From the human T2T-CHM13v2.0 reference genome, Homo sapiens, in assembly GCF_009914755.1 (NCBI RefSeq), contig NC_060943.1: a stretch of 64,000 nucleotides of DNA; one strand, given 5' to 3'. The notes under the pieces were generated by a model that had not been told where the DNA came from, made no database searches, and was given only the letters and a program-made list of their open reading frames with translations. Position numbers and translations under genes: made by a program. Shown here piece after piece: positions 5,610 through 7,842 of this stretch (the stretch's first letter is position 1; the number at the start of each line of letters is the position of its first letter).

Positions 5610-6213
5610 CTGTTGTGGAAGAAGCAGACATGGTGCTGAGCTGCCCGGGCAGCCAGGGTGGAGGCCGGGCCTGGAGCCCACACTCGGCTTCTCCTCGTGG
5701 TTCTGCCCACGGCTGGCCATTCACCACTCTCAAGCCCCTGGGCTTTTGCCCACACCATGCCCTCCGCCTTGCCCTCCACGGCAACTCAGATGCCACTGCT
5801 CCTCCGATATTACCGAACTGTTAACGCCGCCCATCCCCCCTCATTCGGCTGGCCCGGCTGGTCACAGCTCATCCCGGTTGCGTGTTATTTTGCCTATTTT
5901 TCAGCCAGCCAGCCAGACTGTGAGCTCCATGGAGGCAGGGATGTGGGCAGCTGGAGAGGAGACTGGGAGAGGGTCCCAGGCGTGCTGTGTCCTCCCGGGG
6001 GCTCAGTGATTATTTGTTGCCTGAATCACTGTGGCCACGGACAGAAGCTGGTCCCCTGTGCCACTGGTCAGTGCTGACAGGGCATGATGGCTGAGAAGTT
6101 TATCTACCGTCCGTCCCCTGCCCACAGCCCTCCTGTAGCTCCCCAGTGCCTGGAGCCACAGAATTCTTGCCCCTCAGCCTCATGTTCAAGGCCCCTGCTA
6201 GCCCCTCAATGTC

Positions 6214-6510
6214 TTTTTTTTTTTTTTTTTTTTTTGAGATGGAGTGTCGCTCTGTTGCCCAGGCTGGAGTGCAGTGGCGCCATCTCAGCTCACTGAAACC
6301 TCTGCCTCCCAGGTTCAAGTGATTCTCCCACCTCACCCTCCCAAGTAGCTGGGATTACAGGCGCCTGCCACCACACCTGGCTCATTTTTGCATTTTTAGT
6401 AGAGACAGGGTTTCATCATGTTGGTCAGGCTGGTCTCGAACTCCTGACCTCAAGTGATCTGCCTGCCTCGGCCTCCCAAAGTGCTGGGATTACAGGCGTG
6501 AGCCACTGCG
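6214..6510 (-). mobile_element. AluS element lacking about 7 nt of its 5' end, joined to a duplicated intron fragment
   Basis: Poly-T at 6214-6235, then a dimeric Alu in reverse complement ending ...GTGAGCCACTGCG. Confidence 0.92.
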
Positions 6511-6601
6511 TGCCAGGTACCCGCCTTCTGACTCTCTGGGGAAGGCCTCATGGTCACTCTCTTTGCCCTGAATCTCAGCAGAACCAAGATCCCCACTTAC
6601 C
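6510..6601. repeat. 92-bp direct duplicate of 5450-5541 (start of IL4I1 intron 6)
   Basis: Base-by-base identical at offset 1060 except C5511/A6571. Confidence 0.97.
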
Positions 6602-7842
6602 TCAGTCCATGTCTTTTATGGCAGCTCTGGTTCTGTGAACAGTGTACAGTGCCCAGACCACCTGCCCTCAGGGCTCTCCCACCTACACATCTGGCACCTA
6701 TTGTTTCCCTGCCTGTCTTTGCGTGGCACATGAGTGCGTGTTCTTCAGCACTTTGTTCGAATCTCACCCCCTCCCAGAAGCCTTGCTGCCCCCATCTAAT
6801 TTCAGCCTTCTTCTTGGTCCACCTGGCTTCCCCCTTCTGGCCAGGACCTCAGAGGGAAGGCAGTGCCCCTTCACTCACTCATGCATCTCGCATCTCTCAG
6901 ACTCCCAAACCAGTCAGTGTCAAGGCATAGAAATGACCTGGACATGGCCCCCATCCTGGTCTAGAAGGGGAGATGGGCAAGTGGGCTCTGACCTGGGTGG
7001 GGAGGGGATGTTGGGTGTGGCCAGTTCCTCCCTAAAGGTATCAGGGAAGGCTTCCTGGAGGAGGGGACATTGGAGCTAGTTCTTGAGGGCTGAGCAGGAG
7101 TTCCTGTGTGGGGAAGGGAAAGGCATTCTGGAAAGGGAGGGCGATACACAGGTATAGTGGGTGTGAGGAACACAGAGCTGGGGGCATGTGGACCACCATG
7201 AGGACAAAAATTTCTTAGAGGAGAAAAGAGCATGAGGCTGGAGGGGTGCAGAAGGGAAGGCCAGTCAGGGCTCAAAGCTGAGCCTGAAAAGATCAGACTT
7301 TGTCCTGGAGGCAGCGGGGAGCCACTGGGGGCTGTGAGCAGCATCACTCTGGGTGTGTGGGAAGACGTTTCTGGTACCAGGCTGGGGAGACTAGAGCCTG
7401 GGCAGCTTGAGAGGAGGCTGGGGGAGGGTCCAGGGCAGAGGAGGAGGCCTGAGCTGGGGCAGGCAGAGGGGAGCAGGGCACAAGCGTCAGGCGGCAGGGG
7501 TGGGCACTGATGGTGGGGGAGGTGGGCGAGGAGGAGGTCAGGAGGAGGATGGCTCCTAGGGGTCTGCCCGTGACTGCGGGATGGTGGGGCCATCGTGAGA
7601 TGGGGGCACCGGGAGGAGGAACAGGTTTAGGGGAAGCTTCTGAGCCCAGTGTCCTGGGGAGGGACACAGATCAGGGTCTCGGGAGGCAGATGTCTCCATC
7701 AGCCCATGGATCTATGTTTAAGCCAGAGGTGGAGACTGGGGAGGTTATCCAGGACAGTGTGTGGGTGAAAGGGGAAGAGGCCAAAAGCTGATGCAGCTTT
7801 GGGGTCAGCAGTGTTTACGGGGAAGCTAAAGAAGGGAGTTGG

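What the first reader, a model, noticed from the sequence alone, without database searches (positions are those of the whole stretch)
6205..6617. A copy of the exact 5' end of IL4I1 intron 6 is fused to the head of an Alu in intron 5: possible RNA-templated insertion
Seen: 6510-6601 equals 5450-5541 with one mismatch. In transcript orientation the copy starts within 1 nt of the intron's first base (GTAAGTGGGGATC...), runs 91 nt, then joins an Alu missing about 7 nt of its 5' end, followed by the poly(A) tail. The unit is bracketed by CTCA----ATGTCTTTT (6205-6217) and CTCAGTCCATGTCTTTT (6601-6617), which looks like a TSD at an L1-endonuclease TTTT/A site. Known: L1 reverse transcription produces 5' chimeras with cellular RNAs (U6-L1 type). 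Inference: a breakpoint at the splice donor suggests the template was the excised intron of the host gene itself, captured in cis during Alu insertion or during later RNA-templated repair. Caveat: the Alu is visibly more diverged from consensus than 1/92, which favours a later insertion or gene conversion over a simultaneous event.
Basis: partly seen in the sequence, partly recalled or inferred. Interest (0 to 1): 0.8.

Follow-up and report, generated by a model that had tools for sequence, protein, structure and literature searches.

The report
Intron-start copy fused to an Alu
Inside one human IL4I1 intron, an old Alu carries at its head a near-perfect 92-base copy of the very start of the next intron, which looks like a piece of spliced-out intron RNA copied back into DNA, although copying from nearby DNA is not excluded.

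Summary
6510-6601 equals 5450-5541 at 91 of 92 bases. Flank homology is absent, and the whole genome holds only these two copies.

The copy lies between the head of a minus-strand Alu and the Alu's 5' target-site duplication. That Alu lacks its first 7 bases. One duplication, a poly(A) tail and a TTTT/AT cleavage site bracket the whole unit.

In transcript orientation the copy starts at intron 6 position +1, with a 2-base ambiguity. Chance gives this 0.2-0.5% of the time.

I judge an RNA template, the excised 297-nt intron, about 60% likely. Either L1 reverse transcriptase switched from Alu RNA to intron RNA during the Alu's own insertion (0.38), or a cDNA patch was added later (0.25). DNA-templated copying is about 0.3.

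Three results weigh against a simple story:
- The Alu is old (9-12 non-CpG changes), so one mismatch in 92 is unlikely under co-insertion (P about 0.02, range 0.0003-0.2).
- A second local duplication in the same gene has no splice-site boundary.
- Germ-cell expression of IL4I1 is not shown.

Primate orthologues, which I could not reach, would decide.

The parts
5450..5541 (-). Source segment: last base of IL4I1 exon 6 (5541) plus intron 6 positions +1 to +91 (5540 down to 5450).
   Evidence: The hub gene table gives exon 6 as 5541-5609. The donor reads TTG|GTAAGTGG.
5244..5540 (-). IL4I1 intron 6: 297 nt, GT..AG. This is the proposed RNA template once excised.
   Evidence: One search gives the sequence and fold (z-score +0.52, so no unusual structure). 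Coordinates follow from the hub table.
6510..6601 (-). The copy: 91 of 92 bases identical to 5450-5541, same orientation, 1,060 bp away in intron 5. It recreates a donor-like GAG|GTAAGTGG.
   Evidence: Only 2 copies exist in the genome.
6236..6509 (-). Alu body in sense orientation to IL4I1. It lacks the first 7 bases of the Alu head, and its age is typical of the older Alus in the window.
   Evidence: BLAST hit 6232-6509, query positions 9-283. (head alignment with 53 Alus). (divergence). (both monomers hit Metazoa_SRP below the gathering score, minus strand).
6214..6235 (-). Poly(A) tail of the Alu, seen as a run of 22 T on the + strand. Up to 4 of these T may belong to the TSD.
6204..6217 (.). 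Target-site duplication, 3' copy relative to the Alu: CCTCA ATGTCTTTT.
6600..6617 (.). Target-site duplication, 5' copy relative to the Alu: CCTCA GTCC ATGTCTTTT. It is followed by AT, giving a TTTT/AT endonuclease site. Its first two C overlap the end of the intron copy as 2 bases of microhomology.

Best explanation
This is a two-part retrocopy made in one L1-driven insertion.

1. L1 ORF2p nicked the + strand at TTTT/AT in IL4I1 intron 5.
2. It primed on the poly(A) of an Alu RNA and copied that RNA to about base 8.
3. It then continued on a second RNA, the 5' part of excised IL4I1 intron 6. This could happen by a template switch or because the two RNAs had been ligated beforehand. The intron RNA could be linear after debranching, or a lariat.
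4. It ran off at the intron's first base.
5. The cDNA end (..CC) paired with the GG at the 3' end of the other target strand. This closed the insertion inside a single 14-18 bp target-site duplication.

Shown: the anatomy, the orientation, the boundary at intron +1 (within one base either way), the single TSD, and that the segment is unique in the genome. Inferred: that the template was RNA, that it was the excised intron, and that both parts arrived together.

Taken more broadly, the claim that the template was RNA, whether added with the Alu or later, has about 0.6 probability.
For: - One TSD, one poly(A) tail and a TTTT/AT site bracket the Alu plus the copy. The TSD 9-mer occurs only at these 2 places in 64 kb.
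- Among 14 of 51 window Alus with an exact TSD of at least 9 nt, 12 have it within -3 to +14 nt of the head. This Alu has it at 99 nt. The remaining one is a low-complexity match.
- The copy has the same orientation as the Alu. Template switching or RNA ligation predicts this; twin priming does not (Law & Burns 2026, section 17).
- The copy's orientation also allows sense IL4I1 RNA to template the + strand cDNA.
- The copy ends at intron +1, within one base either way, with no further exon sequence. Chance gives this with probability 0.0021-0.0022 under uniform breakpoints, or 0.0047-0.0051 if GG microhomology is required.
- No flank homology, and only 2 copies in the genome.
- Short full-length excised intron RNAs exist as stable species in human samples (Yao et al. 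2020, passages). Intron 6 is 297 nt.
- Chimeras with an Alu as the 3' part have been reported, though they are rare (Doucet et al. 2015, passage).
Against: - The Alu is old. It shows 12 of 234 non-CpG differences and 14 of 40 CpG-column differences from the majority of 54 window Alus. It shows 9 non-CpG-type differences from the majority of its 9 nearest genomic Alus. No younger source copy was found: the best other hit is 90% identical, with 40 of 2,488 candidates scored.
- If the copy were as old as the Alu, about 3-10 mismatches would be expected and 1 is seen. P(at most 1) is 0.0003-0.2, centred near 0.02.
- The intron RNA was used from an internal point (+91 of 297), not from its 3' end as in U6-type chimeras.
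- U6/Alu chimeras could not be reproduced experimentally.
- IL4I1 expression in testis is reported mainly in Sertoli cells, not germ cells (Wiemann et al. 2005, passages).
- A second local duplication in the same gene (8151-8298 and 9548-9695) has no splice-site boundary.
- The TSD copies differ by a 4-base indel.
Confidence: 0.38

Rival explanations
1. A later RNA-derived patch. The Alu inserted normally. Much later a double-strand break at its head was repaired by capturing a cDNA of excised intron 6, or by copying that RNA directly. The repair removed 7 bases of the Alu head. This resembles a class 2 templated sequence insertion.
For: - It explains the 1 in 92 divergence beside an old Alu.
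- It keeps the explanation for the intron +1 boundary.
- Both junctions have 1-2 bases of microhomology plus a 7-base loss, as at end-joining junctions of templated insertions (Onozawa & Aplan 2016, text parts 1-2).
- The segment has no poly(A) or TSD of its own.
- RNA-templated break repair is documented in human cells (Jalan et al. 2025, abstract only).
Against: - The break must have fallen within about 10 bases at the junction of Alu head and TSD. That is about 10 of 2,800 bases of the intron if breaks are random.
- The TSD stayed intact apart from a 4-base indel that is not at the junction.
- The described templated insertions come from distant loci, not from 1 kb away in cis.
- Germ-cell expression of IL4I1 is not shown.
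Confidence: 0.25
2. DNA-templated copying, with the donor-site boundary a coincidence. There are two versions. In the first, the cDNA end or the target 3' end copied nearby genomic DNA while the Alu's 5' end was being attached. In the second, a replication or repair template switch (FoSTeS/MMBIR or polymerase-theta type) jumped back 1,060 bp and returned.
For: - The template lies 1,060 bp away in cis, which is natural for DNA-level copying.
- 5' extra nucleotides of LINE inserts are often derived from flanking sequence (Yamaguchi et al. 2014, passage citing earlier work).
- About 12% of Alu insertions carry 5' extra nucleotides (Kojima 2010, Table 4 passage).
- A second dispersed direct duplication in the same gene is 141 of 148 identical, has 2 copies in the genome, and has no RNA landmark at its ends.
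- Both dispersed duplicates found in 264 kb lie within 4.3 kb of each other. The clustering probability is about 0.03, which suggests a local propensity.
- The intron carries an inverted Alu pair, 88-95% complementary, with inner ends 1,341 bp apart.
Against: - The boundary at intron +1 must be chance, at 0.002-0.005.
- In the later-event version, the position at the junction of Alu head and TSD must also be chance.
- Microhomology is only 1 and 2 bases.
- 92 nt copied from 1 kb away is far longer and more distant than the usual flank-derived extra nucleotides. That comparison is recalled, not measured here.
Confidence: 0.3
3. Other origins: an interspersed repeat, a remnant of a larger segmental duplication, a 5' transduction from a source Alu that lay behind the same sequence, or an assembly artefact.
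For: Nothing positive was found. These are listed for completeness.
Against: - Only 2 copies of the 92-mer exist in the genome.
- There is no flank homology, in register or gapped.
- No Alu lies next to the source at 5450.
- No near-identical Alu exists elsewhere; the best hit is 90%.
- I could not compare with another human assembly.
Confidence: 0.05

Closest known systems
L1-mediated chimeric retrocopies made by RT template switching or prior RNA ligation (U6/L1, U6/Alu, small-RNA/L1 and mRNA/L1 chimeras)
   Same: - Two RNA-derived parts in the same orientation.
- One TSD around both parts.
- A poly(A) tail at the 3' end and a TTTT/A target site.
- The 5' part starts at the 5' end of its presumed source RNA.
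   Different: - The 5' partner is not an abundant small RNA or an mRNA exon. It is 91 nt of an intron.
- It comes from the very gene that received the insertion, 1 kb away.
- It is used from an internal point rather than from its 3' end.
- The 3' partner is an Alu, a reported but rare arrangement.
- The word 'lariat' does not occur in the main text of the 2026 catalogue of L1 chimeras, and the passages and sections I read describe no excised-intron partner.
Class 2 templated sequence insertions (TSI/TSIP; Onozawa and Aplan)
   Same: - A short insert in the reported size range of 73-414 bp, copied from a transcribed sequence.
- The donor site is intact.
- The insert has no poly(A) or TSD of its own.
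- The junctions show microhomology and a small deletion.
   Different: - The described cases come from distant loci, by the design of the screen.
- This one comes from 1,060 bp away in cis.
- It sits exactly at an Alu 5' junction inside the Alu's TSD.
- It starts at an intron's first base.
Flank-derived 5' extra nucleotides of LINE/SINE inserts, and replication-based template switches (FoSTeS/MMBIR)
   Same: - Local template in cis.
- Short microhomology at both junctions.
- No RNA hallmark is required.
   Different: These mechanisms predict no relation to splice sites. Here one end lies at the donor, which chance gives with probability 0.002-0.005.

Membership tests
L1-mediated chimeric retrocopy (template switch or RNA ligation type) | A single target-site duplication brackets both parts | tested here: met
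   CCTCA-ATGTCTTTT at 6204-6217 and CCTCA-GTCC-ATGTCTTTT at 6600-6617. The 9-mer is unique to these 2 places in 64 kb. One 4-base indel separates the two halves.
L1-mediated chimeric retrocopy (template switch or RNA ligation type) | 3' poly(A) tail and an L1 endonuclease target (TTTT/A) | tested here: met
   A run of 22 T at 6214-6235, and TTTT/AT at 6614-6619. The consensus 5'-TTTT/AA-3' is quoted in Wagstaff et al. 2012.
L1-mediated chimeric retrocopy (template switch or RNA ligation type) | Both parts are in the same orientation | tested here: met
   The Alu and the intron copy are both sense on the minus strand.
L1-mediated chimeric retrocopy (template switch or RNA ligation type) | The 5' part begins at the 5' end of a discrete cellular RNA | tested here: inconclusive
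   The copy begins at intron 6 position +1, within one base either way. That is the 5' end of the excised intron. That this RNA was the template is inferred, not shown.
L1-mediated chimeric retrocopy (template switch or RNA ligation type) | Both parts appear at the same time in phylogeny | not testable with these tools
   No primate genomes are held. The divergence proxy leans against: P(at most 1 mismatch) is 0.0003-0.2.
Class 2 templated sequence insertion | The insert has no TSD or poly(A) of its own, and its junctions look like end joining | tested here: met
   No A-run lies at the +91 end. Microhomology is 1 and 2 bases, and 7 bases of the Alu head are missing.
Class 2 templated sequence insertion | [quoted passage not shown] | tested here: not met
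   The template is 1,060 bp away on the same strand. 'Distant' is part of the published screen's definition.
FoSTeS/MMBIR local templated insertion | Nearby template, with microhomology at both switch points | tested here: inconclusive
   The template is nearby. Microhomology is only 1 base (G at 6510) and 2 bases (CC at 6600-6601).
Interspersed repeat or segmental duplication | More than two genomic copies, or homology that extends into the flanks | tested here: not met
   2 of 2 genome matches are the two local copies. Flanks match at 15 of 60 and 11 of 60 bases, the level of chance.

The most novel reading that the evidence does not exclude
Excised spliceosomal intron RNA of the host gene, linear or lariat, was reverse-transcribed in the germline and fixed in the genome. 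This locus would then be one visible member of an unrecognised genome-wide class. In that class, L1 reverse transcriptase or RNA-templated repair samples local, freshly excised introns in cis and leaves copies that start exactly at intron +1. Such a class would give direct genomic evidence for the step of reverse transcription of an excised intron that intron-transposition models of intron gain assume. (The link to intron-gain models is recalled, not drawn from a call.)
Probability: 0.3. Interest if true: 0.75.

Novelty: new variant of a known kind. Interest (0 to 1): 0.5.

Why it matters
If the template was the excised intron, this locus records a cellular RNA species that is not known to be reverse-transcribed into the human germline. 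It would also show that the reverse transcriptase used RNA made 1 kb away in the same gene. That bears on three questions:
- how L1 ORF2p chooses second templates;
- whether RNA-templated repair leaves scars in normal genomes;
- whether models of intron movement are realistic.

There are also practical consequences. The copy places a perfect GTAAGT donor motif inside intron 5. It also creates two 92-bp direct repeats that flank exon 6, which is 69 nt and in frame. Cryptic splicing and a 1,060-bp recombination deletion of exon 6 are therefore conceivable. Neither was tested.

If the boundary is a coincidence, the locus is an ordinary templated insertion at an Alu junction.

Tried and rejected
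- **Interspersed repeat or larger duplication: rejected.** Only 2 genome copies exist, with no flank homology.
- **A young insertion of an old-looking Alu from a diverged source copy: not supported.** The best other genomic Alu is 90% identical. Only 40 of 2,488 first-look candidates were scored, so a lost or unscored source is not excluded.
- **5' transduction from a source Alu: rejected.** No Alu lies next to 5450.
- **Lariat read-through: no sign of it.** This would place sequence upstream of a branch point next to GTAAGT. The bases before the copy are the TSD. The 11-mer across the junction has no second exact copy in the window: 4 matches at up to 1 mismatch, against 1.94 expected.
- **A specially stable structure protecting the first 91 nt of the intron: not supported.** The intron's fold has a z-score of +0.52.
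- **Gene conversion keeping the copies alike: judged unlikely.** Homology is only 92 bp and the one mismatch is central (position 62). This is an inference, not a test.
- **Exact-match TSD survey of window Alus: too insensitive for a rate.** It found a TSD for only 14 of 51 Alus.
- **Survey for other local low-copy duplicates: stopped early.** It covered 264 kb (20 ten-kb stretches beside the window, plus the window) and found 3 of 17 same-piece pairs to be low-copy: one tandem repeat and the two IL4I1 pairs. The genome-wide enrichment test therefore remains undone.
- **Literature:** six full-text searches found no description of an excised-intron/Alu or excised-intron/L1 chimera. Buzdin et al. 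2003 is not held. I opened no supplementary tables, and they could list such cases.
- **Sub-threshold Rfam hits** to mir-1268, mir-3135 and mir-619 in this stretch lie within the Alu matches or run on from them. I did not pursue them.
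Full report
**What is there.** The + strand stretches 5450-5541 and 6510-6601 are 92 nt long and differ at one position, 5511 C against 6571 A. 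The similarity stops abruptly. In register, the 60 bases upstream match at 15 positions and the 60 bases downstream at 11. The best gapped local alignments of 300-nt flanks score only 14-15. A search of the whole assembly returns only these two places, 2 candidates with both scored. The segment is therefore neither an interspersed repeat nor part of a larger duplication.

**Source.** IL4I1 lies on the minus strand and exon 6 is 5541-5609 (hub table). The source is therefore the last exon base plus the first 91 bases of intron 6. Intron 6 is 297 nt long, runs GT..AG, and has the donor TTG|GTAAGTGG. All 7 annotated donors of the selected transcript begin with GT. Intron 6 is the only one with GTAAGT.

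**Context of the copy.** The copy abuts the head of a minus-strand Alu, so the Alu is in sense to the gene. BLAST with a neighbouring Alu as query aligns 6232-6509 from query position 9. In a MAFFT alignment with 53 other near-full-length Alus of the window, this element matches the family from column 8 or 9 onward. Its first seven columns are occupied by intron sequence, with one base of overlap.

The Alu ends in a run of 22 T at 6214-6235 on the + strand. The unit of tail, Alu and copy is bracketed by CCTCA-ATGTCTTTT (6204-6217) and CCTCA-GTCC-ATGTCTTTT (6600-6617), and the latter is followed by AT. This is a target-site duplication at a TTTT/AT site, with one 4-base indel between its halves. 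The 9-mer ATGTCTTTT occurs at only these two places on the + strand of the window.

Because the right-hand duplication begins with the two C at 6600-6601, the end of the copy is ambiguous over intron +2, intron +1 and exon -1. No further exon sequence is present.

A crude exact-match survey found a TSD of at least 9 nt for 14 of 51 window Alus. Twelve of these lie within -3 to +14 nt of the Alu head. This Alu's lies 99 nt away. The remaining case is a low-complexity AAAT match.

**Is the donor boundary chance?** Suppose the relevant end of the template were placed at random within 2 or 5 kb either side of the insertion, on the gene's strand. It would then fall in the three-base ambiguity window of an annotated donor with probability 0.0022 or 0.0021. 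If GG microhomology is required at the joint, the figures are 0.0047 or 0.0051. Allowing for either end and for acceptors as well raises this about fourfold. This assessment is post hoc, because the locus was flagged for this coincidence.

**Age.** Against the column majority of 54 window Alus, this Alu differs at 12 of 234 non-CpG positions and at 14 of 40 bases in CpG columns. That ranks it 14th of 54 by non-CpG divergence. Six of the twelve are shared with at least 7 other Alus and may be subfamily states. Six are essentially private. Against the majority of its nine most similar genomic Alus, it has 9 non-CpG-type and 7 CpG-type differences in 274 aligned positions.

No near-identical source Alu exists. 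The best other hit is 90% identical, with 40 of 2,488 candidates scored. The divergence therefore most likely arose in place.

If the 92-mer were as old as the Alu, the expected number of mismatches between copy and source runs from about 3 to about 10. The low end assumes the source is frozen by selection and the low rate applies. The high end assumes both copies are neutral, the high rate applies, and the one CpG is included. This gives P(at most one mismatch) from 0.20 down to 0.0003, with about 0.02 for middle assumptions. Fisher tests give 0.083 (copy alone, 1 of 90 against 12 of 234) and 0.006 (both copies evolving).

The age argument thus leans against simultaneous arrival but does not exclude it. 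Much of the Alu's visible divergence is CpG decay, which the intron segment, with a single CpG, could hardly show.

**A second duplication.** A self-comparison of the window at 93% identity or more gives only two non-Alu pairs: the one above, and 8151-8298 against 9548-9695. The second pair is 141 of 148 identical, in direct orientation, with only 2 copies in the genome and no flank homology. It joins the interior of intron 3 (+257 to +404) with intron 5, so neither end is at a splice site.

The intron-5 member starts inside the right-hand TSD (AAGAAGGGAGTTG, 7829-7841 and 8147-8159) of the second Alu of the intron (7843-8149, + strand). That Alu therefore entered sequence that was already there.

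The same search on 264 kb used 20 ten-kb stretches upstream plus the window, at 90% identity or more. It found 17 same-piece pairs of 40-800 nt. Only 3 were low-copy: one 73-bp tandem repeat and these two IL4I1 pairs. Two dispersed duplicates within 4.3 kb in 264 kb has a probability of about 0.03. This hints at a property of the locus. The two pairs do not differ significantly in divergence: 1 of 92 against 7 of 148, one-sided p = 0.12.

**Weighing the mechanisms.** Four readings differ in two respects: RNA or DNA template, and arrival with the Alu or later.
- *Position.* The position inside the Alu's TSD follows automatically if the segment arrived with the Alu. It needs a break within about 10 of 2,800 intron bases if it came later.
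- *Boundary.* The boundary at intron +1 follows from run-off on an excised intron. It is a coincidence of 0.2-0.5% on a DNA template.
- *Divergence.* The low divergence is natural for a later event and has a probability of roughly 0.02-0.1 for co-insertion.
- *Origin in cis.* This is natural for DNA copying. For RNA it requires that local, freshly made RNA be favoured.

A DNA template with later arrival needs two coincidences and is the weakest reading. An RNA template with co-insertion explains both the position and the boundary, and pays only the age penalty. An RNA template with later arrival explains the boundary and the age, and pays the position penalty. A DNA template with co-insertion explains the position only.

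My estimates are:

| Reading | Probability |
|---|---|
| Co-insertional template switch onto intron RNA | 0.38 |
| Later RNA-derived patch | 0.25 |
| DNA-templated, either timing | 0.30 |
| Other | 0.05 |

These numbers rest on rough priors that I could not measure.

**What is known.**
- Chimeric retrocopies bracketed by one TSD are established for U6, U3, 5S, 7SL, tRNA, 28S and mRNA exons joined to L1. The same orientation points to template switching or RNA ligation (Law & Burns 2026; abstract, passages and sections 17-18).
[quoted passage not shown] 2015, passage).
- About 12% of Alu insertions carry 5' extra nucleotides (Kojima 2010, passage).
- 3.5% of de novo Alu inserts and about 10% of genomic Alus are 5' truncated (Wagstaff et al. 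2012, passages).
- 5' extra nucleotides of LINE inserts are often derived from flanking sequence (Yamaguchi et al. 2014, passage).
- Templated sequence insertions use transcribed sequences, introns included, and class 2 events look like end-joining patches (Onozawa & Aplan 2016, text parts 1-2).
- RNA-templated break repair occurs in human cells (Jalan et al. 2025, abstract).
- Short full-length excised introns persist as RNAs (Yao et al. 2020, passages).
- The testis form of IL4I1 is reported mainly in Sertoli cells (Wiemann et al. 2005, passages). Germ-cell presence of the intron RNA is therefore not shown.
- Six full-text searches found no description of a retroelement chimera whose 5' part is the start of an excised intron of the host gene. 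I did not open supplementary tables.

**Verdict.** It is best filed as a new variant of known L1-mediated chimeras or templated insertions. An RNA template is likely but unproven. The decisive test, primate orthologues and human haplotypes, was not available here.

Noticed in passing
window 8151-8298 and 9548-9695: A second dispersed direct duplication within IL4I1, joining intron 5 with the interior of intron 3. It is 141 of 148 identical, has only 2 copies in the genome, and shows no flank homology. Neither end is at a splice site. Which copy is derived is unknown.
   Followed up: partly
window 7829-8159: A second Alu of intron 5, on the + strand at 7843-8149, with a run of about 26 A. Its perfect TSD AAGAAGGGAGTTG spans the left boundary of the 148-nt duplicate. 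So both local duplicates of this gene touch an Alu end.
   Followed up: partly
window 6214-6509 and 7851-8143: The two Alus of intron 5 form a head-to-head inverted pair. The arms are 88-95% complementary, with inner ends 1,341 bp apart. Such pairs can be fragile, but a link to the insertion at the inner Alu head is only a thought.
   Followed up: no
window 6595-6605: The copy recreates a donor-like motif, GAG|GTAAGTGG, inside intron 5. This is the only other GTAAGT-type donor sequence of the gene's set. No annotated exon uses it. Cryptic or decoy use was not tested.
   Followed up: no
window 5450-6601: The two 92-bp direct repeats flank exon 6 (5541-5609, 69 nt, in frame). Recombination between them would delete 1,060 bp including that exon. 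Population data were not available.
   Followed up: no
L033 9431-9575 (G000:C19:52875431-52875575): A perfect tandem duplication of about 73 bp. It was the only other low-copy local duplicate in the 264 kb surveyed.
   Followed up: no
window 5060-5106: The start of intron 7 is a long run of C on the + strand, which is G-rich in the transcript, directly after the donor CCA|GTAAGGGG. It is possibly a G-run splicing enhancer or a quadruplex-prone stretch.
   Followed up: no
window 6256-6383, 6479-6575, 7975-8101: Sub-threshold Rfam matches to mir-1268, mir-3135 and mir-619. All are far below gathering scores. They lie within the two Alus, except that the mir-619 match runs on into the intron copy. 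I read them as family models built on Alu-derived hairpins, not as genes here.
   Followed up: no
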